NCBI GenBank assembly: GCA_963817955.1
Contig: CAWFQK010000005.1
Location: 1 to 64,000, forward strand
From: an uncultured Gemmatimonadaceae bacterium
GTDB lineage: Bacteria > Gemmatimonadota > Gemmatimonadetes > Gemmatimonadales > Gemmatimonadaceae
Reading direction: 5' to 3'
Length of the DNA stretch: 64,000 nt
In this document: positions 1 through 41,664 of the stretch, in pieces
Layout: each line of letters begins with the position of its first letter
Numbering within the stretch: position 1 is the stretch's first letter
Program-made: the position numbers and the translations under genes
The notes under the pieces: model-generated
The model's input: only the letters and a program-made list of their open reading frames with translations
Database searches by the model: none
What the model was told of the DNA's origin: nothing

Positions 1-129
1 AGACCTACGGGGTGGGACAACTCCGATGTCCGGATCGCGACAACTAGCCTAACCGCTGAGGCGTTGGCAGATACCAAACTCACTGAGGAGACCGCTGAGG
101 GTAGGATTCCCAGCTACGACTCGTGGTGG

Positions 130-144
130 GTCAGTTATGCTTAG
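130..144. repeat. 15-bp direct repeat GTCAGTTATGCTTAG, copy 1 (att-core-like)
   Basis: Identical 15-mer at 5445-5459; preceded by CCGCTGAGG/CACTGAGG repeats at about 53, 81 and 92. Confidence 0.6.
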
Positions 145-333
145 GCCTGAGCGGCCAACGCACTTGTCGCGCCCCGGACACGAGAGTTGTCGCGATTCCG
201 GGGTCAGCGCGGCATCGCAGTTGTCGCGCCCTCCGCTCACGGCATGAGTCCGAAAAGACAGCACGGGTAGGCTAGACGCGACGCCGAGGCCCGAGGCTTG
301 GCAGACGAGCAATAGGACGAGCAGCATGTTGCA

Positions 334-930
334 ATGCTGTTCGATTCGATCGGGGTCTGGCTGACCGCGCAGCGCTGCATGGCCGTCTTTAACGCGGCCG
401 GGATAGCGGCGTGCGCATACGCCGGGCTTCTCCTGACGATCACCTCGTGGGATCCGCGGCCATTTATTAGAGATCTACGAAGCAAGCAAGAGCAAAACCC
501 GAATTACTGTGACACCGTCTTCGCCAGTCAGTTGATGGGGTTTGGAATGCCGTTGGTGGTCGGCGGCGCCATCGCCGCCGGTCTTTTTCGTGAAACAGAT
601 CTGTCGCGGTTGCAGGCCGCAGCCATCGCCACAGTCGTATTCTTGCCAGCCTACTACGCGATCGGTGCCGTTGGCCGCCGCGCGATTTTGGGACGCTCGG
701 CGTGGTGGTGGACCCTGCGATTGCCATTCGGCTTACTTCTTGGATCCGGCTGGATGGTCGAAAGACTCCTACGCGGCCGCGTGCTCGCGATACTCGACTG
801 GGTCGCCGCGCAACGCGACAGAGCTGACGTCGGGCACTACGAGCCACGGACCCTGCCGGCGATTGTTTGGCTGTGTGTGGGCGTCTGCCTCCAGCTCGCC
901 ACGGCCTGCGCTACTGTTGTTCTCGGCTGA
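334..930 (+). CDS. hypothetical membrane protein
   Basis: 198-aa ORF with several hydrophobic segments; no recognised family. Confidence 0.45.
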   Translation: MLFDSIGVWLTAQRCMAVFNAAGIAACAYAGLLLTITSWDPRPFIRDLRSKQEQNPNYCDTVFASQLMGFGMPLVVGGAIAAGLFRETDLSRLQAAAIATVVFLPAYYAIGAVGRRAILGRSAWWWTLRLPFGLLLGSGWMVERLLRGRVLAILDWVAAQRDRADVGHYEPRTLPAIVWLCVGVCLQLATACATVVLG

Positions 931-1179
931 CGCCGCTCGGCCGCTCCGCGTCGCGGCTACGCCGCCCACCACCAGCGCGATCCGAGGCGCAGCGGTTCCT
1001 GAGCCTCTCGCCGCACCACGATGCTCTCATCGCTTCGCGCATCGTAGACTCTGGCCCCACAGACTACAAGACCATGGGCGGTCGAAGCGGCACTCATCCC
1101 GCCCGGGTCCACCCCGTCGATCAGGACCGGTACTCGGTCCGCGGGGATGCCGCGGGTTCGCTACACGTCTCGAGCGCCA

Positions 1180-2514
1180 TTACGCGACGTGCCGGAACGC
1201 CGACTGGATTCGCGTGACCCACTCCGTGTCGAGGCCGGCGGCCTCGGCTTCCGGTCCCCAGATCCCAAGCGCGGCCTCAACTTCTTCGAGGATCTCGACA
1301 CCGTGCTTCGGAATATCGAACTCCCTTCCAAGGGCCAGGAGATCCGCTCGGGTGAACGCATCGTCTTTGCCGCGCGCAGTCATCTGATGCGTCCGCGTCC
1401 ACTTCGAGCCGTAGGCGTACGTCACGTCGAACGCGGGTGCCAGCGCCCACTGGCCGTCCGACCCCATGAGGAACGCAAGATTCTTGACATGATCGTCCTG
1501 GTTCCGTGCGGCGATGTTGAAGACCATGCGCCGGAACGCCTGGGTGACCGCCGGTTGGCCGAGCCGCAGCCGTCGAATGGTGCGGAAGTAGCCTTCGTAC
1601 GAAAGCAGCCGGGGGACGTTGTAGTCCACATGATGGAGGCCACCCAGACTGTGCATGTGGATCCGCACGCTGCCGTGGCGATCAAAGCGCTTGGTCATGA
1701 AGTGCGCGAACTGCCGCTCGCGCAACAGGTGCGTCTCCGACATCTCCACGCCGGCCGCGCGCGCCATTTGCGAGTACGCGTACTCGATCCGTCCAAACGG
1801 TCCGGGCACGAACGCCTTGATCATCTCGTGCCCGCCGACGCCGCCGGTGACGCCGTCGAACTTGATCATCCAGGGCTCGTCGCCGTCGGTCGGCGTTGCG
1901 AACGCCGACTTGACGTGGCGTGCGTCCCGGTTCCAGAGGATCAGCGCCTTCGCACGGGCGCCCCCCGCCGATGCCCCGACCTGCATCATCTCTGGGACCG
2001 CCACGTCGGTGTCGCCCTCGATGATGCGGCGCGCTTCCTCGACCAGGCGGGCGATGTGGAGCGCTGCATCGGCGCGGCCGTCGAGGCGATCCAACGCCGG
2101 GCGGAACTCGAGCGCTCCCATCGCTCGGCTTCCGATGTAGAGGAGCTTCTGGACCGGGCTCAGCGCGGCGTCCGGCGTGCCCCGCTCCTCGAAATACCGC
2201 TTGATGACCGCATTGCCGAAGGCGTCCGGCAAGCAGTCGGCGAGCAGCCCGGGCAGGCCGAGAAATGACTCGACGCGCTGCAGTGCCGGAAAGGCGATTG
2301 GCCCGCGACGTGAGAGGGGCAGGTGGATCGGCGAGAGCTCAAGGCCCGAGGCTCGGAAGTGCTCTGCGTACTCGAAGACCACCTGACCACTCGCGTCCTC
2401 AGTGACGGCACCGACGTCCTCACCCCAGGCACTGATTCGAGCGACGGCGTAGCCTACCGGCTGGCGGCCGTTGCGCGCGCGAGGTGCGCGAGGTGCGCGA
2501 GGTGCGCTAGGCAT
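1180..2514 (-). CDS. hipA: HipA-family kinase toxin (type II TA)
   Basis: Motifs LPDAFGN, GASAGGARAKA, KRFDR, NQDDHVKN, LAPAFD; ATG at 2514 overlaps the upstream stop (ATGCCTAG). Confidence 0.92.
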   Translation of the reverse strand: MPSAPRAPRAPRARNGRQPVGYAVARISAWGEDVGAVTEDASGQVVFEYAEHFRASGLELSPIHLPLSRRGPIAFPALQRVESFLGLPGLLADCLPDAFGNAVIKRYFEERGTPDAALSPVQKLLYIGSRAMGALEFRPALDRLDGRADAALHIARLVEEARRIIEGDTDVAVPEMMQVGASAGGARAKALILWNRDARHVKSAFATPTDGDEPWMIKFDGVTGGVGGHEMIKAFVPGPFGRIEYAYSQMARAAGVEMSETHLLRERQFAHFMTKRFDRHGSVRIHMHSLGGLHHVDYNVPRLLSYEGYFRTIRRLRLGQPAVTQAFRRMVFNIAARNQDDHVKNLAFLMGSDGQWALAPAFDVTYAYGSKWTRTHQMTARGKDDAFTRADLLALGREFDIPKHGVEILEEVEAALGIWGPEAEAAGLDTEWVTRIQSAFRHVA

Positions 2515-2851
2515 GTTCGTCACCCTCGGCGCGTCGCCGACGCTTCGACGCGCGCGCACGCTGGGGTTCACGGCCAGCGCGCGCGGCGACCTCGATCGGC
2601 GAGACCAGGGGCACGGGTAGGAAGGCCTCGAATGCGTCCAAGCGGTCGAGGGCGCGGAGGATCCGAATCAGTGTGGCCAGCGTCGGGTTAGCCCCGGACT
2701 CCGCCCGCAGGACGGTCAGTCGTGTCACGCCAGCCGCGGCGGCCACGTCCTCGAGCGTCCGGTTCTGCTGGAGCCGATACCGCTGAAGTCGGCTTCCGAT
2801 CTCGGCGAGGATCTCTGGTGTCGTCGCTTCCGGCGAGATTCGACTCATCAT
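2507..2851 (-). CDS. XRE/HTH antitoxin (HipB-like)
   Basis: HTH pattern RLQQNRTLEDVAAAAGVTRLTVLRAESG; directly upstream of and overlapping hipA. Confidence 0.88.
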   Translation of the reverse strand: MMSRISPEATTPEILAEIGSRLQRYRLQQNRTLEDVAAAAGVTRLTVLRAESGANPTLATLIRILRALDRLDAFEAFLPVPLVSPIEVAARAGREPQRARASKRRRRAEGDEHA

Positions 2852-2963
2852 CGATAATGGAAATGGTGCCTTAGAAGATACCTTCCCGCGTCGGCAAGGT
2901 GTCAACATACAATATAAGTTACCTAACAAACGGAGAAATGGCAGCTGTCAGTCGCGCGGTATT

Positions 2964-3019
2964 GTATCATATATGATGCTCCATGCTGGATGATGCCAGT
3001 AGAGTATTATATGTGATAC
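2964..3019. promoter_or_regulatory. two quasi-palindromic 16-bp AT-rich boxes, alternatively one 18-bp stem-loop
   Basis: GTATCATATATGATGC (2964-2979) and GTATTATATGTGATAC (3004-3019). Confidence 0.5.
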
Positions 3020-3252
3020 CTTATCATACCGAGCAACCGGCTTGACGAAGGGCTTGGCCGCTTCACCCTCTGCAGAGGCGGCCTGCCCGTGCGTGTCGAG
3101 ATGCGCGGTCTATTGGGATTCGGTTGCACGCTCTATCGTAAGATCGTGTACGCTCTATCGTAATCCGGACCATAGCGCGTAAGTGGTAGACAGACAGCAG
3201 GGAGGCCCCGGCCGGGAGGTTGGGGCCTCTGTTTCCTAGGGTTGTTATGGCA

Positions 3253-3877
3253 CTAGCGGTACGTAACACCGAGCATGGGCAGCACTTCGACCCGGTCTGT
3301 CTCGTAGTGGGCGTGCATATGCCCGCACACCAGCTCCGGATACCCGAGGTGCGCCCATATCGCCTCGAGCACCACGGCCGAGGGGTGCGGTTGCTGCCCG
3401 GTCATGGCGACGGTGACGCTCGATGGAGGAGTGTGCGTCACTAGGAGATCGACACTTCCAGGGGAGACCTTCCTCCAGGCCTCGAGATCGACGTCGGTAA
3501 TCCTCTCCTCATCGGGCCACCAATCCACCCCTGGCTTCCGCGACGATCGGTCGGTCACGGAGTCTGCGCCTCCGAGGAAACCAACGCGTCGCCCGCCCAT
3601 GGTGTTGATCTTTCCGCGAGGGAAGAAAGTGAGCTCTGGACGGATGAGGGTTGGAACCGTGAGCCCGTGGGTATCCGGATAGTAGTGGTGGTTGCCGTCG
3701 ATAAAGCCGAGGGGTCGAGCGAGCGGCCGCCAGCGTGCCCTAGTCGCCGCAAGGTGGTCCGGGCGCACCGTGAGGTCGCCGACCTGAATGACGTGTGTCA
3801 CCCCCAGCGGGGAGGTCCGCAACGATCTCCTCGAGATCGTCCATGAACTGGTGAGTGTCTCCAATTATCGCTATCAC
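3253..3877 (-). pseudogene. calcineurin-like metallophosphoesterase with +1 frameshift (or sequencing error)
   Basis: GTG at 3877 gives MIAIIGDTHQ (motif I); GDL, GNHH, THTPP and CGHMH follow in another frame after the C5 run at 3801-3805; span 625 bp = 3n+1. Confidence 0.8.
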
Positions 3878-3947
3878 GCGGCTTCGCTACGCTTGAGGTC
3901 GGTGGCAGGATTGGGACCCCGAATTGGACCGGGCTTTCCATGCGGTG

Positions 3948-3977
3948 TTGACACTGCCGCTTCGTTCTGTATATAAT
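3948..3977 (+). promoter_or_regulatory. consensus sigma70 promoter
   Basis: TTGACA (3948-3953) - 18 bp - TATAAT (3972-3977), upstream of the MNT gene. Confidence 0.8.
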
Positions 3978-4082
3978 ACCTGCGTACCATAAATAGAACG
4001 GAAATCCTGTTAAGAAGATGGAGGGCCTATATATAGAACGTAGCGTCTATATAGGACGAATCAACTCACGACGGTCCTACCC

Positions 4083-4790
4083 ATGCGAGCGACCCCAAAG
4101 AGTCATTTCCACAACCCCGTTGACGCCCTCCTCGGAAGTGCGAGCGAGGTGCGGGTCCTTCGCGTCTTGGCTCGACACGGGGGGACCCTGTCGGCGTCAC
4201 ATCTGGTAAACCAAACACGCCTCACTCGCTCGAACGTCCATAGGGCTCTGCAGAGCCTCATGGCGGGACGAGTGGTAGAGGCGCTCGGGACCGGGCGAAG
4301 CGTGCTCTATCACATTGCCCCCCAGCATCCGCTCGTACCGGCACTCACAGCAGTATTTGAGGCCGAGGCAGGACGTGTCAACCGAGTGTTCGAGGCCATT
4401 CGCCGCACGGCAGATGGCCACGCCCCGTTTGTGCTCGGGGCATGGCTGTATGGAAGTGTCGCCCGCGGCGAGGACACGAACAAGAGCGACCTCGATGTGG
4501 CCATCGTGGTCGATGAGGAGCCAGCCGATCGGATCACGAAGGCAATCCGCGAGGATTTTGAGCCGATGGAAACTGGCGAGGGCGTCACCGTGTCGGTGCT
4601 AGGACTGAGCCCAACCGAATTCCTTCGTCTTCCCTCCATCAATCCGCAATTCTGGACGAGTCTCCGGGAAGATGCTGTCTCGCTGTTTGGGCAGTCGCCG
4701 GACAGCCTTGTCACGTATCTGAAGATCGACGCGCACAAGGCGTCCGCTGGGTCCGCAGAAACCACCCGCTCTGGACCGATCAATGGTTAG
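4083..4790 (+). CDS. wHTH + minimal nucleotidyltransferase (MNT) protein
   Basis: N-terminal HTH; LYGSVARGEDTNKSDLDV fits GS-X10-DXD. Confidence 0.88.
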   Translation: MRATPKSHFHNPVDALLGSASEVRVLRVLARHGGTLSASHLVNQTRLTRSNVHRALQSLMAGRVVEALGTGRSVLYHIAPQHPLVPALTAVFEAEAGRVNRVFEAIRRTADGHAPFVLGAWLYGSVARGEDTNKSDLDVAIVVDEEPADRITKAIREDFEPMETGEGVTVSVLGLSPTEFLRLPSINPQFWTSLREDAVSLFGQSPDSLVTYLKIDAHKASAGSAETTRSGPING

Positions 4791-5202
4791 GGCCGGGCCG
4801 ACCAAGACAGTGGGTGGCGACGAATGGCGCGGCCGCCTCTCCAACGCGAAGGCATTCCGCCGAGCCGCCGAGAATCTCTTGGAGCTCTGGGAGGAGGGTG
4901 ATACTGGGAACCCCGTTGTCGTGCTGATCGTCCTGGCCGCGATCGGCTATGGCGATGCTCTCTCGGCACGATTTGACGGCAAGGTGAACCAGACGAACCA
5001 CGCTGCACTCCCGACCACGATCAAGGCAGCCATGGGGAATCAGGCCGACACACAACAACTTTCTAGGCTCAAGAAGATCTTGGACGAGAAGGACACTGCC
5101 TCCTATGGAGCCCGCATCGGCCGCATGGATGAGGCGCGCGAGCTGCACGTCCAGCTCCAACGATTCGCCGCTTGGGTGGAGAGTGTCCTGAGCCAGCGTT
5201 AG
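4783..5202 (+). CDS. HEPN-like protein
   Basis: 139-aa helical-type protein overlapping the MNT gene; AAIGYGDA...NH...KDTASYG pattern. Confidence 0.7.
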   Translation: MVRAGPTKTVGGDEWRGRLSNAKAFRRAAENLLELWEEGDTGNPVVVLIVLAAIGYGDALSARFDGKVNQTNHAALPTTIKAAMGNQADTQQLSRLKKILDEKDTASYGARIGRMDEARELHVQLQRFAAWVESVLSQR

Positions 5203-5444
5203 GACAGCGAGCCCGCCCAATGCCTACGCGCGCCGCATCTGTCATGAGCAACGGGAGCGCGCGTGATGGCGGCACCCCCCCAGGGGTGGCTTGGCGGTCG
5301 GTACAACGCAGCTGCCTCCCGCTCCCGCTCCCGTGCAGCGGGCGCGAGTCATTCTTCGAGAGGTTACGATAGAAATCTCTCTGGTGCCGCTCTTCAATTA
5401 CGATAGACAGCGCGAGGTTTTACGATAGAGCGCGCAAAGCGACA

Positions 5445-5459
5445 GTCAGTTATGCTTAG
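5445..5459. repeat. 15-bp direct repeat GTCAGTTATGCTTAG, copy 2
   Basis: Abuts the ACA end at 5444; starts 16 bp past the pilC stop. Confidence 0.6.
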
Positions 5460-5475
5460 CCGCTAGGACCATCTC

Positions 5476-6672
5476 CTACCCCGCCGCATTCACCATATCA
5501 AAGATCGGCAAGTACATCGCCACCACCATCCCGCCCACCACCACCCCCAGGAACACGATCATCACCGGCTCCATCAGCGACAACAGCCCCGACACCGCCG
5601 CATCGACTTCCTCATCATAGAAGTCCGCGATCTTCGTGAGCATTTCATCAAGTCCGCCCGTTTGCTCACCAACAGCGATCATCGAGATCACCATGGGCGG
5701 AAAGACCTGGCTCTTCTTGAGCGGCGCCGCGATCGTCTCACCACCCGCGATCGACGCACGCGAGTCCATGATCGCGTCCTGGATGACGCGATTGCCCGCC
5801 GTCTTCGCCGTGATCTCGAGGCCGTCCAGAATCGATACGCCCGATGAAATCAGCGTGCCCAGCGTGCGCGTGAAGCGCGACACCGCGGACTTGCGCAGCA
5901 CGTCACCCAGCACCGGCGCCCTCAGCAACAGACGGTCGATCGCCAACTTGCCTTCCGACGTGGCGTAGAATCGTTTCAGGCTCGTTCCCGCGGCGGCGCC
6001 CGCAATCACCAACACGTACCAGTAGGTCTTCAGCGCATGCGACAGGCCAATGACGATGCGCGTCGGCAGCGGCAGCGCGATGTTCGCGCTGGCGAACATC
6101 GTTTGGAAAGTGGGGATCACGAACACCAGCAGCACGGTGATGGCGATGCCCGCCACGCTCATGATCACGCCCGGGTAGATCATGGCGCCCTTCACCTTCC
6201 GGACCAGTGCGTCGTTCTTCTCCATGAACACGGCGAGGCGCATGAGGATGGTGTCGAGGATACCGCCCGCCTCGCCGGCCGCCACCATGTTCACGTACAG
6301 CTCCGAGAATGCCTTGGGATGCTTGCGTAGCGCGTCAGCCACAGTGTTGCCCGACTCGACGTCGAACACTACCTGCCGCGTCACTTCCTTGAGCGCCGGG
6401 TTCTCGCTCTGGTTGGCCAGGATGTCGAGCGCCTGTACGAGCGGCAGGCCCGAGTTGATCATCGTCGAGAACTGACGCGTGAAGATCACGATGTCACGCA
6501 TCTTGATCGATCCGGTGCGCTTCTTCTTGGCCGCGACGCCTTCGTCGATCTTGACGACGTTCAGCTTCTGCTGGCGAAGCTGCTTGATGACTTCATCGCG
6601 ATTCGGCGCCTCGATGGTGGCCGACTTCAGCTCACCGTTGATCGCGCGCGCGGTGTACGTGAATTGGGGCAT
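5476..6672 (-). CDS. pilC: type IV pilus platform protein PilC (T2SS F family)
   Basis: FTRQFSTMINSGLPL, AGEAGG, MIAVGEQTGGL, MYLPIF. Confidence 0.95.
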   Translation of the reverse strand: MPQFTYTARAINGELKSATIEAPNRDEVIKQLRQQKLNVVKIDEGVAAKKKRTGSIKMRDIVIFTRQFSTMINSGLPLVQALDILANQSENPALKEVTRQVVFDVESGNTVADALRKHPKAFSELYVNMVAAGEAGGILDTILMRLAVFMEKNDALVRKVKGAMIYPGVIMSVAGIAITVLLVFVIPTFQTMFASANIALPLPTRIVIGLSHALKTYWYVLVIAGAAAGTSLKRFYATSEGKLAIDRLLLRAPVLGDVLRKSAVSRFTRTLGTLISSGVSILDGLEITAKTAGNRVIQDAIMDSRASIAGGETIAAPLKKSQVFPPMVISMIAVGEQTGGLDEMLTKIADFYDEEVDAAVSGLLSLMEPVMIVFLGVVVGGMVVAMYLPIFDMVNAAG

Positions 6673-6700: not shown

Positions 6701-7858
6701 TTACCGCTTTCCGGCCATTCCAGTCTTCGCGGCTGCATCGCCGTCGGGGCTGATCCCTATCATCCGCATCAGCTCCGACTGATCGTGGGTGGCGCGAAGC
6801 ACTTCTTCGAGCGCCACGGACTTGTTCATGTACAGGTTGTACAACGCGTCGTTCATGGTTTGCATGCCGTACTTCTTGCCCGACTGCATCATCGAGTAGA
6901 TCTGGTGGATCTTGTCGTCGCGAATGAGCGCACGGATGGCCGGCGTGACAACCAGGATCTCGGCCGCCATCACGCGCCCCTTGCCGCCCACCTTCGGCAG
7001 CAGGGTCTGCGTGATGATGCCCTCGAGACAGAACGCGAGCTGCGCGCGCACCTGCGACTGCTGATGGCTCGGAAAGACGTCGATGATGCGGTTGATCGCC
7101 TCCGCCGCGCTATTCGTGTGCAGCGTGGCGAACGCCAGGTGGCCCGTCTCGGCAATCGTCAGCCCCGCCTGGATCGTCTCGAGATCGCGCATCTCGCCGA
7201 TCAGCACCACGTCGGGGTCCTGTCGCAGCGCATACTTGAGTGCCGCACTGAAGCTCTTGGTGTCCGAGCCGACTTCGCGCTGATTGACGATGCAGTTCTG
7301 GTGCTTGTGAATGAACTCGATCGGATCCTCGATCGTGATCATGTGCCCCTTCATCTCCTTGTTGATCTTGTCCAGCATCGCGGCGAGCGTCGTGGACTTG
7401 CCGGAACCGGTGGGGCCGGTGACGAGGATCAGGCCGCGCGGCTTGTTGGATAGGTCGGAGATGACCTTCGGCAGATTGAGCTGCTCAAAGGTCTTGATAT
7501 CGAACGGGATCTGCCGGATCACCATCGACACGCAGCCGCGCTGCTTGAAGCAGTTGCCGCGGAAGCGCGCCAGGTTCTGGATGCCGAACGAGAAATCCAG
7601 CTCGTCCTCCATCTCGAACCGCTTCTTCTGACTCTCCGTGAGCACCGAATACGCGAGCTGCAGCGTATCCTTCGGCTGCATCATGAAGTCGACGTTCGAG
7701 CGCGCCATGTCGCCGTCGACGCGCAGCATTGGCCGCTGGCCGGCGCTGATATGGAGATCCGATGCGCCACGCTCGATCATCTCTTCGAGAAGGACGCGCA
7801 GGTTCAGCGCTTGCGCGCCAGGAAGAGGGGCAGGAGGTGTCGAGGTCGGTGCGGTCAT
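6701..7858 (-). CDS. pilT: twitching motility ATPase PilT
   Basis: GPTGSGKSTT, EDPIE, TLHTN, AIRALIRDDK. Confidence 0.95.
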   Translation of the reverse strand: MTAPTSTPPAPLPGAQALNLRVLLEEMIERGASDLHISAGQRPMLRVDGDMARSNVDFMMQPKDTLQLAYSVLTESQKKRFEMEDELDFSFGIQNLARFRGNCFKQRGCVSMVIRQIPFDIKTFEQLNLPKVISDLSNKPRGLILVTGPTGSGKSTTLAAMLDKINKEMKGHMITIEDPIEFIHKHQNCIVNQREVGSDTKSFSAALKYALRQDPDVVLIGEMRDLETIQAGLTIAETGHLAFATLHTNSAAEAINRIIDVFPSHQQSQVRAQLAFCLEGIITQTLLPKVGGKGRVMAAEILVVTPAIRALIRDDKIHQIYSMMQSGKKYGMQTMNDALYNLYMNKSVALEEVLRATHDQSELMRMIGISPDGDAAAKTGMAGKR

Positions 7859-8030: not shown

Positions 8031-9869
8031 TCAGGCCGACGTTTCGCGGATCATCTGCTCGGTGGTGGTGATGCCCTTCATCACCTTGAGCCACGCGTCC
8101 ATGCGCAGGGTCAGCATGCCCTCGGCGATGGCGCCATCACGAATGTCCGCTGCGCCCACATTCTGCATCACGAGCTTGCGCAGCCCCGGCGTCATCAGCA
8201 TGACCTCGTAGACACCCTGCCGGCCCTTGAGGCCGGTGCCGGCGCACTGCGGACACCCTTTGCCCTTGAAGAAGCCGAGCTCCTTGATCTTGGTGTCGAG
8301 GCTGAGGGTGGCGAGATACGGCAGGGCTTCCGGCGTTGCCTTGGCCTTGGCGTTGCGCAACGCCTCCTCGGTAAAGCGCAGGTCGCCCATTGTCGTCTCG
8401 AGCGTCACTTTGGCTGCATCCAGCTCTTCCTTGCTCGGATCGTACTGCACGCGACAGCCGGAGCAGATGCGGCGCACGAGCCGCTGCGCGAGAATGAGGT
8501 TGAGCGCCGACGCCACATTGAACGGCTCGAGGCCCATGTCCATCAGACGCGTCACCGTTTCAGGCGCCGAGTTGGTGTGCAACGTGGACAGCACCATGTG
8601 GCCGGTGAGCGCCGCCTTGATCGCGATGCCGCCCGTTTCGAGATCTCGAATCTCGCCAACCATGATGATGTTCGGGTCCTGCCGCAGGAACGCCTTCAGC
8701 GCCGCGGCAAACGTCATCCCGATCTCGGTGCGCACCAGGACCTGGTTGATGCCGAAGAGGTTGTACTCCACGGGATCTTCCGCCGTCATGATGTTGACGT
8801 CGATGGTGTTGACCTTGGACAACGCCGAGTAGAGCGTGGTCGTCTTGCCCGAGCCCGTCGGACCGGTGACGAGCACCATGCCATACGGATTCGACACCGC
8901 CTCCATCAGATCCTTCTCGGCGCGCGGCTCGATGCCGAACTTCTCGAGATCGAAGGTCAGGTTGCCCTTGTCGAGAATTCGCAGCACGATCTTCTCGCCG
9001 AAGAGCGTGGGCAGCGTCGACACACGGTAGTCGATGACCTTGCTGCCGATCTTCAGCTTGATGCGGCCGTCCTGCGGCACGCGGCGCTCGGCGATGTTGA
9101 GCTGCGCCATGATCTTGAAGCGGGAAATCAACGCCGCCTTGAGCTTCAAGGGCGGCTTCATCACCTCGAACAGCGCACCATCGACGCGATAGCGGACGCG
9201 GATCTCGTGCTCGAAGCACTCGAAGTGGATGTCCGACGCCCCGCGCTTCACCGCATCCGTGAGGATGGCGTTGATCAGTTTGACGACGGGTGCGTCCTCC
9301 ATCTGCGCCTGGAGCGCAGCCTGGGAGACGTCCTCCTCCATCTCCTCGACGACTTCCACCTCGCCCGCGGCTTCGGCCTCGAGCTCCCCGATGGTGTCCA
9401 TGAGCGACGCCATCTGCTGCTCGTCCGACGCACCAAAGACTTTCTCGATCATACTACGGAGCGTGAACTCGCCCGCGATGACCGGGAAGATGTCGTAGCG
9501 CGTGATGAACTTGAGGTCTTCCAACACGCCGAGGTTGGTCGGATCGGCCATCGCGACCGTCAAGATGCGGCCGTCACGCTTCAGCGGAATGACGAGGTTC
9601 TTCTGCGCCAGGTCCGCCGGAATCATCTTCGCGATCTTTGGATCGACCTCGAAGTTCGAGAGGTCGACCGGCCGCATCTTGTACTGCTTCGCCAGCGCCT
9701 TCGTCAGCTCCTGCTCCTGGATGAAGCCAAGCTTGACGAGGTTATACCCTACCCGCGTGCCGCTCTGTTTCTGCTCCTGCAGAGCCTTGGCCAACTGCTC
9801 AGCCGTGATGAGCCCCTCACGAAAGAGGAGATCGCCAATGCGTTCTGAGGCTGAATCCGGTGCCGCCAT
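8031..9869 (-). CDS. pilB: type IV pilus assembly ATPase PilB
   Basis: MshEN-like N-terminus (RIGDLL), GPTGSGKTTT, two CxxC motifs; ATG at 9869. Confidence 0.95.
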   Translation of the reverse strand: MAAPDSASERIGDLLFREGLITAEQLAKALQEQKQSGTRVGYNLVKLGFIQEQELTKALAKQYKMRPVDLSNFEVDPKIAKMIPADLAQKNLVIPLKRDGRILTVAMADPTNLGVLEDLKFITRYDIFPVIAGEFTLRSMIEKVFGASDEQQMASLMDTIGELEAEAAGEVEVVEEMEEDVSQAALQAQMEDAPVVKLINAILTDAVKRGASDIHFECFEHEIRVRYRVDGALFEVMKPPLKLKAALISRFKIMAQLNIAERRVPQDGRIKLKIGSKVIDYRVSTLPTLFGEKIVLRILDKGNLTFDLEKFGIEPRAEKDLMEAVSNPYGMVLVTGPTGSGKTTTLYSALSKVNTIDVNIMTAEDPVEYNLFGINQVLVRTEIGMTFAAALKAFLRQDPNIIMVGEIRDLETGGIAIKAALTGHMVLSTLHTNSAPETVTRLMDMGLEPFNVASALNLILAQRLVRRICSGCRVQYDPSKEELDAAKVTLETTMGDLRFTEEALRNAKAKATPEALPYLATLSLDTKIKELGFFKGKGCPQCAGTGLKGRQGVYEVMLMTPGLRKLVMQNVGAADIRDGAIAEGMLTLRMDAWLKVMKGITTTEQMIRETSA

Positions 9870-9931
9870 GCGGGTGAGGGGCCTGGAAGGGGGGGAACCG
9901 GGAAGCTGCGGACAGGACGGGGAGGTGTCAA

Positions 9932-11152
9932 CTACTTCATTCCCATCAACTCCGCTCGGAGCAGCACGGCCCCCGTCTTCACCATCGCGGTGTCGCAGCT
10001 GAAGGCAAAGCGAAGCGCGTTGGCGCACTGTACGCCAAACGCATCGCCTGGCGCGCTGCCGATGCCATTCTGAGCCAGACGCGCGGAGAGCTCGTCGGCG
10101 TCTCGCACGCCGAGCCGCACGTACAGCGACGGCTCGAGCGCCACCCAGAGATAGAACGCACCGTGTGGCGTGAAGGGGCGAACGCCAGGGATGTCCGAGA
10201 GCGCGGTAACCATGATGTCCCGGCGAACGCAGTACTCGTCGCGCATGGCCGGGAGCTGATCCTGCGGTCCCGTGATCGCGGCAAGCGCGCCCCATTGGGC
10301 GAGACTGTTCACGCCGTTGATCGTGCATCGCAGGAGTTTCTGGATGCGCTCGCGCAGCACCTTGGACCTGGTATGGACGTAGCCCGTGCGCAGGCCGCTC
10401 ATCGCATAGCTCTTCGAAAATGAGAATATGCTGATGACGCGAGGCGCCCAGTCGCCGGCGAGCGCGGCAATGGAATGGTGCACGTACGGCTCGTACAACA
10501 CGTCCTCGTACGCCTCGTCGGAAATGATCCACAGATCGTGGGCGCGAGCGATCGTGACGATGGCCTCGAGCCGCTCGCGCGGCACGACGGCACCGGTGGG
10601 GTTGTGGGGCGAGTTGACGAAGATCGCCTGCGTGGCCGACGTGATCGCCCGCGCGATGGAGTCCGGATCGTACGCATAATCGCTGGATGCTTCGACGGCG
10701 ACGCGCACTGGCACGGCGCCCGCCAGCCGGATGTTCTCCCCCACCTCGGTCCACATGGGATCCGGGATGATCACCTCGTCGCCGTCGGTCAACAGCGCGC
10801 CGAACGCGACGAAGAGCGCATGCATGGCCCCGTTCGTCACGAAGACTTCGTTCGGCATGACGCCGGCAATCCCATTCTTGGCCCGCAGCTTTTCGGCGAG
10901 CGCCGCGCGCAATTCCGGAATGCCGTCGTTCGGCACGTAATGTGTCTTGCCGGCCGCACCGGCGGCGGCGATCGCCTCAAGGACGTGCGGCGGCACGGAG
11001 AAGCTCGGATCCCCCGACTCGAAGCGGATCACGCGCGCACCTTTGGCCTGCGCCTGCAACAATGCCTCGCGGATCTGTACGATCTTGCCGAACGAGATCG
11101 CGTCCACGCGGTGCGCGGTGCGCTGGTCCTGTGCGGCGGCGCTAGGATTCAT
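9932..11152 (-). CDS. class I/II PLP-dependent aminotransferase
   Basis: NSPHNPTG, SDEAY, SFSKSYAMSGLRTG. Confidence 0.92.
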   Translation of the reverse strand: MNPSAAAQDQRTAHRVDAISFGKIVQIREALLQAQAKGARVIRFESGDPSFSVPPHVLEAIAAAGAAGKTHYVPNDGIPELRAALAEKLRAKNGIAGVMPNEVFVTNGAMHALFVAFGALLTDGDEVIIPDPMWTEVGENIRLAGAVPVRVAVEASSDYAYDPDSIARAITSATQAIFVNSPHNPTGAVVPRERLEAIVTIARAHDLWIISDEAYEDVLYEPYVHHSIAALAGDWAPRVISIFSFSKSYAMSGLRTGYVHTRSKVLRERIQKLLRCTINGVNSLAQWGALAAITGPQDQLPAMRDEYCVRRDIMVTALSDIPGVRPFTPHGAFYLWVALEPSLYVRLGVRDADELSARLAQNGIGSAPGDAFGVQCANALRFAFSCDTAMVKTGAVLLRAELMGMK

Positions 11153-15801: not shown

Positions 15802-17469
15802 ATGAAGTCGTTGTCTTCGTTCCTCCTCGCTGGCTCCGTTGCACTCGCCGCCTGCGGCGCACCGGCCACCCTGGCGACCAAGACGGCGCCCGCGCCGGCA
15901 CAGTCCGTGGTTGTCGCGCCGTCAACGCAGGTTCCCGCGGTCACGCTGTCCGAAGCCCCGCGCAATTGGCAGTTGTTGGACGAAGCCACCGATCACGTGC
16001 CGGGAATTTCCTCTGAGCGCGCCATGCACGAATTGCTCGCGGACAAGAAGCCGCGGCAGACCGTACTGGTCGCGATCATCGACAACGGCATCGACACGAC
16101 GCACGTCGATCTCAGGCCCAATCTCTGGACAAACCCGAAAGACACCGGCAGCACCCACAAGGCCGATGTCGGCGGCTTCGCCAACGACGTGCGCGGATGG
16201 AACTTCATTGGCGGACCAAGCGGCCAGGATGTGCACTGGGACACGTTCGAGGTCACACGGGAATACGCGCGGTGTCACAACAAGCCGGCGGCGAGCGGCC
16301 AGCCACCGATCGCCGACGCCGCGCGCTGCGAGCAAGTGGACGCTGGGTTCGAGAAACAACGCCGAGAACTGGAGTCGAACGTCGCGAACTATCGCGAGGT
16401 CAGCGCGGTGATGCAGCAGATCGTTCCGATTCTCAAACAGGCCGCGAACACCGATTCGCTGACGGCCGACAAGGTGCGGGCGCTGCATCCGACGACGCCG
16501 CAGGTGACGCAGGCGCGTCAGGCTTTTCTGTCGCTTGCCGATCAAGGCGCGACGCCGGCGATCATCGACGACGGACTCACGTCGCTCGAGGGACAGCTCA
16601 AGTACGGACTCAATCCCGATTACAACCCGCGTACGATCGTTGGCGACCACTACACCGACCCAACCGAGCATCGGTACGGCAACGCGGACGTGATGGGTCC
16701 CGAGGCCAAGCACGGCACGCACGTCGCGGGCATCATCGGCGCGGTGCGGGATGACCGCGCCGGCATCAGCGGGATCGCGCCGGCGGTGAAGCTCATGATG
16801 GTGCGTACCGTTCCCGACGGTGACGAGCGGGACAAGGACGTGGCGAATGCAATTCGCTACGCCACCGACAACGGGGCGAAGATCATCAGCATGAGCTTCG
16901 GCAAAGCATACTCGCCGTACAAGGAATCGGTCGACGACGCAGTGAAGTACGCCGACGCGCATGGCGTGCTGATGGTGCATGCGGCAGGCAACGACGGTGC
17001 GGATCTCGCGACGGCAAAGAATTTTCCGAATGCGTCCTACCTGGACGGCGGGCGTCCACGGAACTGGATCGAAGTCGGCGCATCGTCATGGAAGGGCGGC
17101 GCGGACCTCGCTGCGAACTTCTCGAACTACGGCAAACAGCAAGTCGACGTCTTTGCCCCAGGCGTGGACATTCTCTCGACCGTTCCCGGGAACGCCTACG
17201 AGCGTGACAGCGGCACGAGCATGGCCGCCCCAGTGGTGAGTGGCCTCGCAGCACTCATCATGGACTACTACCCGAATCTGACCGGCACCGAAGTGAAACA
17301 AGTCATCATGTCATCGGTCAGCCGGCACACCGATCAGATGGTGAAACGGCCGGGTTCCGCCAGCGACAAGGTGCCATTCGGAAGCCTGTCCGTCACGGGC
17401 GGCATCGTGAACGCGTACACGGCCATTCAGATGGCGGAGGTGTTGTCGAACGGGAAGGCGAGGCCGTAG
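15802..17469 (+). CDS. S8 subtilisin-like serine peptidase, lipoprotein
   Basis: Lipobox LAAC; IIDNG, HGTHVAG, GTSMAAP. Confidence 0.93.
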   Translation: MKSLSSFLLAGSVALAACGAPATLATKTAPAPAQSVVVAPSTQVPAVTLSEAPRNWQLLDEATDHVPGISSERAMHELLADKKPRQTVLVAIIDNGIDTTHVDLRPNLWTNPKDTGSTHKADVGGFANDVRGWNFIGGPSGQDVHWDTFEVTREYARCHNKPAASGQPPIADAARCEQVDAGFEKQRRELESNVANYREVSAVMQQIVPILKQAANTDSLTADKVRALHPTTPQVTQARQAFLSLADQGATPAIIDDGLTSLEGQLKYGLNPDYNPRTIVGDHYTDPTEHRYGNADVMGPEAKHGTHVAGIIGAVRDDRAGISGIAPAVKLMMVRTVPDGDERDKDVANAIRYATDNGAKIISMSFGKAYSPYKESVDDAVKYADAHGVLMVHAAGNDGADLATAKNFPNASYLDGGRPRNWIEVGASSWKGGADLAANFSNYGKQQVDVFAPGVDILSTVPGNAYERDSGTSMAAPVVSGLAALIMDYYPNLTGTEVKQVIMSSVSRHTDQMVKRPGSASDKVPFGSLSVTGGIVNAYTAIQMAEVLSNGKARP

Positions 17470-17601
17470 GGGGACACGAGACACGAGACACGAGACACGA
17501 GACACGAGACAACGGGACAACGGGACTTGAGGCGCTGGACGCGCAACAACGCGTTATGCGTTAGCAGTTGTCTCGTGTCTCGTTTCCCGTGTCCCGTGTC
17601 T
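17470..17601. repeat. inverted heptamer arrays (GACACGA)n ... (TCGTGTC)n
   Basis: Each array starts at the TAG stop of one of two convergent genes. Confidence 0.85.
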
Positions 17602-18579
17602 CTACTTCACCAACGTCACCGCCACATCGCCCACGATCTGCAGGCTCTTGGCCGACAGTTTATCGAAGGTGTCCTGCATGGTGTGGTGATAGTTGGGACT
17701 CGACGGCGTGAATGCGTTATGGACGGGGGGCAGTGGTCCGTATTGCATGTCGATGACATCGATCACGTGGATGCCTTTGCGTAGAAAGGGCACGTGGTCG
17801 TCGGTGATCTGCATACCCACCTCATTCAGAAAGTACTTGTCGTACCCCAGATCAGCCGCGGTCTGCCACACACGATTCACGACTTCGGGCGCCTGCTGCA
17901 CGGAGTTGGCTTCCTGGTAGATCTGCAGGTCGGCATCGCCGATCATGTCGAAGAGCACGCCATATAGCGGCTTGTAGTCCGGCGACGGCAGGTGATTCGC
18001 GAAGTACTGCGATCCGAACAATGCGTCGGGATAGTTGCCGGAGCTGTCTGGATCGAAACTGCCCCAATCCTCACCGTCGACGAACAGCAGATCGACGCCC
18101 ACCGACGGCGGTGTCTTCTTGAAGACGTCGCCGAGCGCGAGGAAGAGGCCCACACCGGAGGCGCCATCGTTTGCACCGAGGATTGGCCGTGCCTTGTTGC
18201 CGAAATTCGGATCTTCGTCAGCAGTGGGGCGCGTGTCCCAGTGGGTGAGGTACAGCACGCGCTGCGTGGCCGACGGATTGAAACGCGCCAGGATGTTGCG
18301 CAACGGGAGCTGCGCGCCCTTGGCAGTCGTCTGCATCCAAGACTGCACGACTACGCTGTCGGTGCGCTTCTTCATTTCGGCAACGATCCAGTCCCCCGCT
18401 TTGTCGTGCGCCGGAGTGCCGGGCGTGCGCGGACCAAAGGCGAGTTGTGCCTTGACGTACGCAAGCGCGGAATCGCCGCTGAACGACGTCTTGGGTCCCG
18501 AGAAACGATCCTTCAGCTTGTCACACCCGGTCAGTGCGACGATCGCGGTGCAGAGGATCGGAAAGGATGGCATTCGCAC
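17602..18579 (-). CDS. M28 family peptidase / glutaminyl cyclase-like lipoprotein
   Basis: LTGC lipobox; HWDTR, GANDGASG, DGED, DMIGD, DDHVPF. Confidence 0.9.
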   Translation of the reverse strand: MRMPSFPILCTAIVALTGCDKLKDRFSGPKTSFSGDSALAYVKAQLAFGPRTPGTPAHDKAGDWIVAEMKKRTDSVVVQSWMQTTAKGAQLPLRNILARFNPSATQRVLYLTHWDTRPTADEDPNFGNKARPILGANDGASGVGLFLALGDVFKKTPPSVGVDLLFVDGEDWGSFDPDSSGNYPDALFGSQYFANHLPSPDYKPLYGVLFDMIGDADLQIYQEANSVQQAPEVVNRVWQTAADLGYDKYFLNEVGMQITDDHVPFLRKGIHVIDVIDMQYGPLPPVHNAFTPSSPNYHHTMQDTFDKLSAKSLQIVGDVAVTLVK

Positions 18580-23378: not shown

Positions 23379-23616
23379 TTGGGCTCCGGGTGTTGACCGG
23401 CTGGATGTCGCTGGCTGCTCCGTAGCGGTCGGCCCACCGGTCGGCGAGTTTCGAGTTGCCAGTTGTGAGTTATGCGTTACGCGTTTTTAGCAACTCACAA
23501 CTCACGACTCACAACTGGACACCCGAACCTCGCCGACCGGCGATAGTGGCCGGCGAGCCAGGCACCCTGGCGCGTATGACCTGTATACTGACAACTCACC
23601 ACTGATCACTGATCAC
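23379..23616 (+). repeat. dispersed ~230-bp hairpin element, copy A
   Basis: Near-identical to 32486-32722 (-) and 39372-39582 (+); stem-loop at 23437-23540. Confidence 0.9.
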
Positions 23617-32416: not shown

Positions 32417-32485
32417 GTTTGTGGCCTTCGCGAAGGTTCGGTGAAGAGAATCCGCGGGGTGAGGCGGATGGGACAGCGGGTGCTG

Positions 32486-32722
32486 TGATCAGTTGTGAGT
32501 TGTGAGTTGTGAGTATACGGGTCCTGCGCACCAGGGTGCCTGGCTTGCAGGCCACTATCGCCGGTCGGCGAGGTTCGGGTGTCCAGTTGTGAGTCGTGAG
32601 TTGTGAGTTTTTAACAACGCGCAACGCATAACTCACAACTGGCAACTCGAAACTCGCCGACCGGTGGGCCGACCGCTACGGAGCAGCCAGCGACATCCAG
32701 CCGGTCGATACCCGGAGTCCAA
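32486..32722 (-). repeat. dispersed ~230-bp hairpin element, copy C
   Basis: Reverse complement of copy A at high identity. Confidence 0.9.
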
Positions 32723-39371: not shown

Positions 39372-39582
39372 TTGGACTCCGGGCTCTATTCTGGCTGGAT
39401 GTCGCTGGCTGCTCCGTAGCGGTCGGCCCACCGGTCGGCGAGTTTCGAGTTGCCAGTGATGAGTTATGCGTTGCGCGTTTTTAGAAACTCACAACTCACC
39501 ACTCACAACTGGAAACTCGAACCTCGCCGACCGGCGATAGTGGCCGGCGAGCCAGGCACCCTGGTGCGCACAACCTATACAC
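39372..39582 (+). repeat. dispersed hairpin element, copy E (interrupted by IS; remainder at 40973-41008)
   Basis: Matches copy A up to ACCTATACAC; TGACAACTCACCACTGA resumes after the IS. Confidence 0.88.
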
Positions 39583-40972: not shown

Positions 40973-41046
40973 CTGACAACTGACAACTGACAACTCACCA
41001 CTGACCACCCGTCGTCCCGCCCGCATCCAACCATTAGTTTCTCTTC

Positions 41047-41664
41047 ATGGCAGACGCTCCCGTCCCATCCCTCGCGCACGCGCGCGAAGCGAAGATCAAC
41101 GAGCTCTCGACGTATTTCACGAACGACGATCTGTCGATCGAGGAGCTGGAGCATCGGATCGAGCGAGTGTACCAGGCGGCGAGCGTCGCCGAGTTGGAGG
41201 CGATCACCGCGGATCTGCGCAGCAGCGTCGCCCTGCCGGCCACGGCGAGTAGCCGGGGGGCTGGTACATCGGTCGCCTCGAGTGAGGCGGGGAGTTCCAG
41301 ACTGCTGTCGCTCCTCAGCTCCACGCGCCGCGTCGGGCGCTGGCGAGTGCCCCCCAAGCTCGACATCGTGGCGATCATGTCGGACACGAAGATCGATCTC
41401 ACACATGCCGTGGTGCCACCCGGTGGCGTGGACATCAATCTGCGGGTGATCATGGCGTCGTTCAGGCTGGTCGTGCCGCCAGATATGCGAGTGGTCAACG
41501 ATACGCATGCCGTCTTGGCGAACGTGAGCAGCCACGCCGATGAGCTACCCCCGAACGACGCCTCCGCTGCGCCAATGCCGGTGGTTCGCCTGACCGGCTT
41601 CGCGTTGATGAGCGATGTCAACGTGGTCGTCCGACGCCGCGAGGACCCGGCGTACGACGACTAG
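41047..41664 (+). CDS. DUF1707 domain protein with LiaF-like C-terminus
   Basis: EELEHRIERVYQA...ELEAITADL; GRWRVP...DLTHA. Confidence 0.8.
   Translation: MADAPVPSLAHAREAKINELSTYFTNDDLSIEELEHRIERVYQAASVAELEAITADLRSSVALPATASSRGAGTSVASSEAGSSRLLSLLSSTRRVGRWRVPPKLDIVAIMSDTKIDLTHAVVPPGGVDINLRVIMASFRLVVPPDMRVVNDTHAVLANVSSHADELPPNDASAAPMPVVRLTGFALMSDVNVVVRRREDPAYDD

What the first reader, a model, noticed from the sequence alone, without database searches (positions are those of the whole stretch)
5420..5520. Candidate new attachment site at the 3' end of pilC
Seen: the ACA terminus at 5444 lies 31 bp beyond the pilC stop codon (5476-5478), exactly where core genes give way to accessory genes. Known: Tn7 TnsD recognises the 3' end of glmS and inserts a short fixed distance downstream, and Tn7-like elements use other conserved genes the same way. 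Inference: pilC could be the target of a TnsD/TniQ-type pathway; I do not recall pilC as a described att site.
Basis: partly seen in the sequence, partly recalled or inferred. Interest (0 to 1): 0.7.

Follow-up and report, generated by a model that had tools for sequence, protein, structure and literature searches.

The report
Transposase-less mobile elements behind pilC
The stretch is the junction between the pilus gene pilC and the tip of a small mobile element that carries no transposase; related elements pile up behind pilC in many Gemmatimonadota, so this gene end is likely a preferred landing zone, though the enzyme that would move them was not found.

Summary
Observation confirmed: ACA at 5442-5444 ends a 2,351-bp element (3094-5444) 31 bp past the pilC stop (5476-5478). 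Both ends start TGT and carry three TCTATCGTAA repeats, one end closely spaced (22/22), the other wide (22/34), as in Tn7/Mu-type transposons. Cargo only: an HTH-nucleotidyltransferase pair and a phosphoesterase-like gene.

Enrichment at pilC is real. A whole-genome scan of 151 Gemmatimonadaceae genomes with an end model gave 17 ends in 11 genomes; 13 lie within 7.3 kb downstream of pilC. In an even sample of 92 pilC loci, 10 have TGT-type multi-repeat ends within about 100 nt of the stop, from at least three end families.

The TnsD/TniQ reading is only partly supported. Spacing is not fixed (6 to 130 nt in 13 ends). The close-spaced end faces pilC in 10 of 12. Two clean insertions show 6-bp, not 5-bp, duplications. 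None of more than 25 elements (0.43-10.7 kb) encodes a transposase. No TnsB/TnsC/TniQ relative was found in the genomes that hold them. One end sits behind queG.

This scan noted pilC as a landing site three times before on other DNA. The papers I searched do not mention it.

The parts
5476..6672 (-). pilC (type IV pilus platform protein, 398 aa); stop codon at 5476-5478
   Evidence: Pfam T2SSF x2, E 6e-67. Neighbours are pilT 6701-7858 and a pilB-like gene 8031-10754. Orthologues at 72-86% identity in 104 of 121 family genomes.
5445..5475 (.). 31-bp spacer between the element terminus and the pilC stop. Its first 15 bp (5445-5459) are copy 2 of a direct repeat.
5335..5444 (-). pilC-proximal end of the element (wide-spaced, 'left-like'). 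Terminus TGT on the - strand = ACA 5442-5444. Repeats at 5420-5429, 5398-5407 and 5364-5373 (spacing 22 and 34).
3094..3203 (+). Distal end of the element (close-spaced, 'right-like'). TGT at 3094-3096. Degenerate repeat at 3109-3118, perfect repeats at 3132-3141 and 3154-3163. CGCGTAAG at 3176-3183, which follows the third repeat (exactly or with one change) in most close-spaced ends.
3094..5444 (.). 2,351-bp transposase-less element. No matching target duplication at its own flanks (GTGCG on the left, GTCAG on the right).
3253..3864 (-). Cargo: 203-aa protein with no family hit. Metallophosphoesterase-like motifs seen by eye only.
   Evidence: no Pfam or NCBIfam hit.
4083..4790 (+). Cargo: winged-helix plus MNT-type nucleotidyltransferase (antitoxin-like), 235 aa.
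   Evidence: Pfam NTP_transf_2, Polbeta and HTH families. Weak NCBIfam MntA match below cut-off.
4783..5202 (+). Cargo: 139-aa protein whose start overlaps the end of the nucleotidyltransferase gene. Predicted partner (toxin) of the pair; no family hit.
1180..2929 (-). hipA (1180-2571) and hipB-like HTH gene (2507-2929), accessory genes between the two end families.
   Evidence: Pfam HipA_C, Couple_hipA, HTH_3.
145..228 (+). End of a second end family. Three TTGTCGCG repeats at 164, 187 and 221 (spacing 23 and 34), pointing into the island. The same architecture lies 9 nt behind pilC in another genome (L246).
130..144 (.). Copy 1 of the 15-bp direct repeat (identical to 5445-5459) that brackets the island 145-5444.
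11..63 (-). Another second-family end, pointing left, off the start of the contig. The island continues beyond the assembled sequence.
   Evidence: The window is the start of contig C5.

Best explanation
The stretch is the junction between the 3' flank of pilC and the terminus of a 2,351-bp cargo-only element with Tn7/Mu-style ends, which is likely a non-autonomous DDE-type transposon moved in trans and predicted to be steered to the region just behind pilC.

Shown:
- Terminal TGT/ACA inverted repeats, each with three 10-bp repeats, close-spaced at one end and wide-spaced at the other.
- The same architecture on elements of 0.43 to 10.7 kb that carry unrelated cargo: toxin-antitoxin pairs, restriction and other defence genes, MacB-type transporters, oxidoreductases.
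- Two insertions with a 6-bp target duplication, one with the unoccupied site preserved in a sister species.
- Strong enrichment of ends within about 130 nt behind the pilC stop, at many different offsets, mostly with the close-spaced end towards pilC.
- Tandem arrays that form variable accessory islands.

Inferred:
- A DDE transposase binds the repeats.
- It is supplied in trans by a helper that is rare, or missing from the assemblies.
- Some selector recognises the conserved pilC 3' end, its terminator region or resident ends, giving a landing zone and not one fixed base.

In this window the element is the pilC-proximal member of a composite island of at least 5.4 kb that runs off the contig.
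For: Anatomy.

Enrichment:
- End model R1 over 151 Gemmatimonadaceae genomes gave 17 ends in 11 genomes. 13 of these lie at most 7.3 kb downstream of pilC: G017 x2, G000 x2, G034, G025, G018, G093, G200 x4, G499.
- A motif scan of one genome per species gave 67 rows. All 17 Gemmatimonadota rows (14 places) fit the end profile, against 1 weak partial fit among the other 50.
- Eight of the 14 places have an end 6-119 nt behind the pilC stop. A ninth is identical to part of a pilC array.
- Even sample of 92 pilC loci: 10 have TGT-type multi-repeat ends within about 100 nt of the stop, from at least 3 end families (classified by eye plus profile).

Mobility:
- The 8.65-kb element in G098 is flanked by GCGGGC on both sides. 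The congeneric G025 has the uninterrupted site.
- The 1,216-bp element in G017 is flanked by TATGCG.
- A 430-bp two-ends-only copy lies in G025.

Orientation and distances.

Cargo without transposase.
Against: - No transposase or target selector was identified anywhere, so the central actor is inferred. Pfam TniQ, Mu-transpos_C and TnsA_N gave nothing in the own genome, but those searches also rang in none of the 14 control genomes.
- One Gemmatimonadaceae Tn7-like element has a TnsB-sized ORF with no Pfam hit at all. Family-based negatives are therefore weak.
- The window's own element has no target duplication.
- Whole arrays are bracketed by 15-30-bp direct repeats, which a simple cut-and-paste insertion does not produce.
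- Four of the 17 genome-wide ends are not shown to be behind pilC: one is behind queG, and three sit on short contigs without pilC.
- Retention bias, that is a permissive spot and not true targeting, is not excluded.
- The own genome is 94% complete. Its contig begins inside the island, so a helper could lie in unassembled sequence.
Confidence: 0.55

Rival explanations
1. Canonical Tn7-like homing. The ends belong to Tn7-family elements whose TnsD/TniQ reads the conserved 3' coding end of pilC and directs TnsABC to insert downstream. The copies seen here would be decayed or mini derivatives of such elements.
For: - Tn7-like end anatomy with asymmetric repeat arrays.
- Position behind a conserved gene with an almost invariant 3' coding block.
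- The close-spaced ('right-like') end faces pilC in 10 of 12 cases.
- Eight of 13 offsets fall between 6 and 37 nt.
I did not test this.
Against: - Offsets of 6 to 130 nt within one end family.
- 6-bp and not 5-bp duplications in the two clean cases.
- No tns gene inside or beside any of more than 25 elements.
- TniQ in 1 of 401 and TniB in 4 of 401 genomes of the phylum, none on the contig that holds pilC.
- The pilC flank is empty in one genome that has a Tn7-like element.
- tblastn with two Gemmatimonadaceae Tns protein sets found nothing in the own genome or in any locus.
Confidence: 0.2
2. Homing on resident ends (accretion). One early insertion behind pilC was followed by later elements that insert into or beside the ends of elements already there, so the array and not pilC is the target.
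For: - The 8.65-kb element of G098 sits about 15 bp inside a decayed solo end that G025 keeps intact.
- Neighbouring termini lie 0-12 bp apart in three arrays.
- Remnants of older ends lie between pilC and the present terminus in L101 and L014.
Against: It does not explain the first insertions at many different offsets, nor ends only 6-10 nt from the stop with no remnant between, nor the end behind queG. In Tn7 and Mu, resident ends repel insertion of the same family (established knowledge, recalled).
Confidence: 0.12
3. Old inherited island with cargo turnover by homologous recombination. The ends are relics kept by descent, and the variable content arises by exchange between strains with no site-directed insertion.
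For: - The same decayed end lies at the same place in two species of one genus.
- 15-30-bp repeats bracket arrays whose two outer ends belong to different families. A crossover between arrays inserted at different offsets would give this.
- Segments of one island are 95% identical to segments of another in a different arrangement.
Against: - A filled/empty pair with a 6-bp duplication.
- At least 12 different insertion offsets.
- At least three end families at the same gene.
- Perfectly kept repeats in ends of a genome that has no detectable transposase.
- Patchy presence: 10 of 92 sampled loci.
Confidence: 0.1
4. Integrase-type genomic islands. The direct repeats are att cores and the 10-bp repeats are arm-type sites of a site-specific recombinase.
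For: Direct repeats of 15, 22 and about 25-30 bp bracket three arrays. The islands sit at the 3' end of a conserved gene.
Against: - No Phage_integrase, resolvase or other recombinase family among about 260 ORFs scanned in and around the islands.
- The termini are inverted repeats with TGT/ACA tips.
- No repeat copy lies at the internal junctions of arrays.
- Single elements carry 6-bp duplications.
Confidence: 0.03

Closest known systems
Tn7 and Tn7-like transposons at attTn7-type sites (TnsABC plus TnsD/TniQ; glmS, tRNA, comM and others)
   Same: TGT/ACA termini. Arrays of roughly 22-bp-spaced repeats that differ between the two ends. Insertion just downstream of a conserved gene without disrupting it. 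One preferred orientation. Defence and toxin-antitoxin cargo. Stacking of several elements at one site.
   Different: No tnsA/B/C/tniQ in or near any copy. Distance to the gene end is variable (6-130 nt). 6-bp and not 5-bp duplications in the two clean cases. Arrays are bracketed by long direct repeats.
Tn552 and Tn5053/Tn402-type relatives of Mu/Tn7 (recalled from memory, not tested)
   Same: Multi-repeat terminal inverted repeats. Regional targeting and not single-base targeting. Tn552 is recalled to make 6-7-bp duplications.
   Different: Those elements encode their transposase and ATPase and are recalled to hunt resolution (res) sites. No such genes or res sites were seen here.
MITEs and other non-autonomous derivatives mobilised in trans
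   Same: Two ends without a transposase, including a 430-bp two-ends-only copy.
   Different: Low copy number (three ends in this genome). Strong site preference. Cargo of up to 10.7 kb. No autonomous partner found in one genome per species of the whole collection within 10 kb of a matching end.
Integron cassette arrays
   Same: Tandem recombinase-less cargo units at one fixed chromosomal place, rich in toxin-antitoxin and defence genes.
   Different: No IntI-type integrase or attC-like sites. Each unit has inverted transposon-type ends.

Membership tests
Tn7-like transposon | Terminal inverted repeats starting TGT, with several spaced transposase-binding repeats arranged differently at the two ends | tested here: met
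   three repeats per end, spacing 22/22 at 3094 and 22/34 at 5444. The same two end types appear in 22 aligned ends.
Tn7-like transposon | Element encodes TnsB (DDE transposase) and TnsC (AAA+ regulator), usually also TnsA | tested here: not met
   The window element holds three cargo genes only. No Tns family in the ORFs of the related loci. tblastn with two Gemmatimonadaceae Tns protein sets gave nothing.
Tn7-like transposon | TniQ/TnsD target selector linked to the element or present in the genome | tested here: not met
   Own genome: no PF06527 match (the control genomes did not ring either, and the genome is 94% complete). Phylum sample: 1 of 401 genomes, and that one is not at pilC.
Tn7-like transposon | 5-bp target-site duplication | tested here: not met
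   6-bp duplications in the two clean cases (TATGCG; GCGGGC with the empty site). None at the window element.
Tn7-like transposon | Fixed distance and orientation relative to the attachment gene | tested here: not met
   Distances are 6, 10, 19, 25, 29, 31, 37, 37, 51, 79, 81, 119 and 130 nt. Orientation is biased: 10 close-spaced, 2 wide-spaced, 1 unclear.
Non-autonomous transposon mobilised in trans | Intact ends, no transposase, evidence of insertion | tested here: met
   with the cargo scans listed above.
Non-autonomous transposon mobilised in trans | An autonomous partner with matching ends exists | tested here: inconclusive
   None found in the genome, metagenome or viral collections at exact-motif level, nor in 151 genomes with the end model. 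MAGs often lack mobile DNA.
Integrase-type genomic island / integron | Site-specific recombinase gene at the island | tested here: not met
   No recombinase family in the Pfam scans of island ORFs.
Integrase-type genomic island / integron | Direct att repeats at both island borders | tested here: inconclusive
   Repeats of 15, 22 and about 25-30 bp bracket three arrays, but not others (L063, L014). No copy at internal junctions.

The most novel reading that the evidence does not exclude
The region behind pilC is a gene-capture platform of a new kind. Cargo cassettes framed by transposon-type ends, none with a transposase of its own, would be inserted, stacked and exchanged by an enzyme encoded elsewhere (host-domesticated or on a rare helper). 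This would work like an integron but be built on DDE-transposon ends, with a landing zone in place of one attachment base.
Probability: 0.15. Interest if true: 0.85.

Novelty: new variant of a known kind. Interest (0 to 1): 0.58.

Why it matters
If the pilC 3' flank is a true landing zone, it adds a conserved 'safe harbour' to those known for Tn7-type elements. It would also explain where Gemmatimonadota, a large and little-studied soil phylum, keep a variable set of defence, toxin-antitoxin and transporter genes.

The odd features are these:
- No copy carries a transposase.
- The offsets behind pilC are variable.
- The clean target duplications are 6 bp.
- Long repeats bracket whole arrays.

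Together they suggest a mobilisation system that works in trans and differs from textbook Tn7 homing. Identifying that enzyme could give a new site-preferring insertion tool. It also makes the question 'who moves transposase-less cargo elements' testable with a defined DNA substrate.

Tried and rejected
- L035 (Bryobacteraceae) matched the motif scan but is a 23-bp tandem duplication at the start of a gene, not an end. Its genome's Mu-transposase hit lies on other DNA.
- The IS21 copies of the own genome have multi-repeat ends of unrelated sequence. The IS481-like copies are likewise unrelated.
- Viral contigs: 21 rows, all AT-rich, none fits the end profile.
- Weak TniB matches in five end-bearing genomes are 840-970-aa generic ATPases, and the control rang in all 14 genomes.
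- Unknown ORFs of the 8.65-kb element: no Pfam, NCBIfam or PDB sequence match. The protein atlas gave DUF6575-like for one and nothing usable for the other.
- All-against-all BLAST of island ORFs found no protein shared between elements, apart from one duplicate locus and hipA.
- Synteny with two same-genus genomes did not locate the far border of the island. No other contig end overlaps the window start.
- A family-blind test for 8-mers repeated at 21-24 nt was noisy: 16 of 90 in the first 200 nt against 2-6 of 76-83 in five control windows.
- Public runs X1-X3 hold only short low-depth contigs over the stretch. They gave no usable joint across the element (one joint with a 20-letter side at under 95% likeness), so they say nothing on excision or empty sites.
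- Structure prediction and complex prediction were not used.

Full report
**What is at the coordinates.** The window is the first 64 kb of contig C5 of a 4.53-Mb, nine-contig genome that is 94% complete. The ORF 5476-6672 on the minus strand is pilC: 398 aa with two T2SSF domains. It is followed upstream by pilT and a pilB-like ATPase. Its stop codon occupies 5476-5478. The trinucleotide ACA at 5442-5444 lies 31 bp beyond it.

Reading inward from that ACA on the minus strand, the sequence starts TGTCG. It carries the 10-mer TCTATCGTAA three times, at 15, 37 and 71 nt from the tip. At 3094 a second TGTCG tip points the other way, with one degenerate and two perfect copies at 15, 38 and 60 nt. 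The 10-mer with up to one mismatch occurs 5 times in the window against 0.83 expected.

**Content of the unit and of the island.** The unit holds three genes:
- a 203-aa protein without family hit;
- a winged-helix plus MNT-type nucleotidyltransferase;
- an overlapping 139-aa gene without family hit.

There is no transposase or recombinase. To its left lie hipBA. At 145-228 lies an end of a second family, with three TTGTCGCG repeats in the same 23/34 spacing. At 11-63 a further end of that family points off the contig start. A 15-bp direct repeat (130-144 = 5445-5459) abuts the outer tips of the composite 145-5444. The element under study is thus the pilC-proximal member of an island that continues beyond the assembly.

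**Is pilC a preferred site?** Three lines of evidence that did not start from pilC agree.

First, an exact two-repeat motif scan of one genome per species returned 67 rows:
- All 17 Gemmatimonadota rows (14 different places) fit an end profile. Of the 50 others only one fits, weakly and partially.
- Eight of the 14 places have an end 6-119 nt behind a pilC stop.
- One more (L051) is identical to part of a pilC array seen on a metagenome contig.
- One (L057) has pilC 6 kb away, plus a copy of the pilC-downstream stretch right beside the element.
- Four hold no pilC in the DNA fetched.

The three that reach a flanking gene are all behind pilC.

Third, a sequence-only model of 21 ends was run over 151 whole genomes of the family and gave 17 ends in 11 genomes:
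- Thirteen lie within 7.3 kb downstream of pilC: G017 x2, G000 x2, G034, G025, G018, G093, G200 x4 and G499 (coordinates).
- One lies 27 nt behind queG in this genome.
- Three are on short contigs without pilC.

I also fetched the pilC flank from an even sample of the family. pilC was found in 104 of 121 genomes. I fetched 92 loci. Left out were 7 genes within 250 bp of a contig end, 2 unpublished genomes, partial genes and weak paralogues. Ten of the 92 have TGT-type ends with two or three spaced repeats within about 100 nt of the stop, and an eleventh is partial. The repeats differ between them (TCTATCGTAA-like, TTGTCGCG, TCTCACGTG, TCTATCGAC, CCGTCGTAA, CTCGTAAT), so several end families use the same place. 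This classification was done by eye, with profile support for 8.

**Are they mobile?** In G098 an 8.65-kb unit with matching TGTGGGCTC tips lies 20 nt behind pilC. It is flanked on both sides by GCGGGC. The congeneric G025 has the same flank uninterrupted, with one GCGGGC. In G017 a 1,216-bp unit is flanked by TATGCG. G025 also holds a 430-bp copy made of two ends only, and a further end of that family about 175 nt behind pilC. Sister species therefore carry independent insertions at different offsets. Complete units of 1.2, 1.7, 1.9, 2.35, 3.1, 8.65 and 10.7 kb all have one close-spaced and one wide-spaced end where both could be scored.

**What they carry.** Pfam scans covered about 260 ORFs in and around the islands. 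They gave:
- AbiE, HipA, Fic and MNT-type toxin-antitoxin genes;
- TIR, type I restriction-modification, Hachiman-like, GmrSD, AIPR and SNF2/DUF1156/DUF499 defence genes;
- MacB-type ABC transporters;
- oxidoreductases.

The only transposases are passenger IS3, IS110 and IS91 types. No protein is shared between elements.

**The Tn7 question.** The ends look like Tn7/Mu-family ends, and the close-spaced end faces pilC in 10 of 12 scorable cases. The window and G017 are the two exceptions. However:
- The offsets are 6, 10, 19, 25, 29, 31, 37, 37, 51, 79, 81, 119 and 130 nt. The four largest keep the pilC terminator between gene and end.
- The two clean duplications are 6 bp.
- TniQ, Mu-transposase C-terminal domain and TnsA N-terminal domain are not found in the own genome.
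- The Mu domain is not found in 14 other end-bearing Gemmatimonadota genomes.
- TniQ occurs in 1 of 401 and TniB in 4 of 401 genomes of the phylum, never on the contig with pilC.

The two Tn7-like elements I inspected have unrelated ends and sit elsewhere. One of those genomes has an empty pilC flank.

A caution applies. In one of them the TnsB-sized ORF has no Pfam hit, and TniQ scores under the cut-off. Family searches can therefore miss divergent sets. tblastn and protein searches with both sets still found nothing in the own genome or in any locus.

**Unexplained.** Arrays in the window, in L025 and in G200 are bracketed by direct repeats of 15, 22 and about 25-30 bp of native pilC-downstream sequence. 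These repeats abut outer tips that belong to different end families. A crossover between arrays that had been inserted at different offsets would give exactly this. I did not test it. New elements also tend to lie in or beside older ends.

**Literature.**
- No paper in the library holds 'Tn7-like', 'attachment site' and 'pilC' together.
- 'pilC' is absent from the main text (passages searched) and the held supplementary text files of Faure et al. 2023 (PMC10293859; 3 files) and Benler et al. 2021 (PMC8649781; 1 file).
- A search for pilC with 'integration hotspot' or 'defense island' listed nothing relevant by title (listing only).
- Other supplements that are not held as text could still name it.

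**Earlier notes of this scan.** Three notes describe ends behind pilC in other genomes. One claims a 27-kb Tn7-type element there, which I could not check. One reached a reading like mine.

**Unpublished genomes.** The tallies include the unpublished genomes G022 and G049.

**Verdict.** The pilC 3' flank is a recurrent landing zone for a diverse group of transposase-less elements with Tn7/Mu-type ends in Gemmatimonadota. A TnsD/TniQ ruler mechanism is not supported by spacing, duplication length or gene content. The moving enzyme is unknown.

Noticed in passing
window 11-63 and 145-228; L246: A second end family (TTGTCGCG repeats, spacing 23/34) with two ends in the first 230 bp of the contig. 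The same family lies 9 nt behind pilC in another genome.
   Followed up: partly
window 130-144 and 5445-5459: A 15-bp direct repeat brackets the whole 5.3-kb island although its two outer ends belong to different families. Longer repeats bracket arrays in L025 (22 bp) and L327 (about 25-30 bp).
   Followed up: partly
G000:C1:127215 (L082:8215): A solo close-spaced end of the same family lies 27 nt behind the stop of queG (epoxyqueuosine reductase). No partner end was found within 12 kb.
   Followed up: partly
window 39593-41535: An IS481-like transposase gene (618-aa ORF) lies between multi-repeat inverted ends (GGGCTGATAGGTGAGC-type). Four copies in the genome.
   Followed up: partly
window 23379-23616, 32485-32722, 39393-39583: Three copies of a 190-238-nt inverted-repeat module (92-93% complementary) that contains short GTGAGTT-like tandem units.
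   Followed up: no
window 17457-17623: Two facing runs of a 7-bp unit (GACACGA-like), 53 nt apart.
   Followed up: no
window 8031-10754: The pilB-like ATPase is 907 aa. It has about 350 residues ahead of the MshEN domain that matched no family.
   Followed up: no
L315:7279-14160 (G478): A divergent Tn7-like gene set in a Gemmatimonadaceae genome. TnsA and TniQ score weakly, the ATPase is TniB-like, and the 729-aa TnsB-sized ORF has no Pfam hit.
   Followed up: partly
L292:9238-15627 (G087): A Tn7-like set whose last gene fuses a TniB-like ATPase domain to a TniQ domain (827 aa). AAAAGACCAAAGT-type repeats lie upstream of tnsA.
   Followed up: partly
L323:1243-1672 (G025): A 430-bp two-ends-only (MITE-like) copy of the TCTCACGTG end family, about 1.1 kb behind pilC.
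   Followed up: partly
pilC loci of the family sample: In 7 of 99 listed pilC orthologues the contig ends within 250 bp downstream of the gene, and several more end within 1 kb. Assembly trouble just behind pilC fits repeated or variable DNA there.
   Followed up: no
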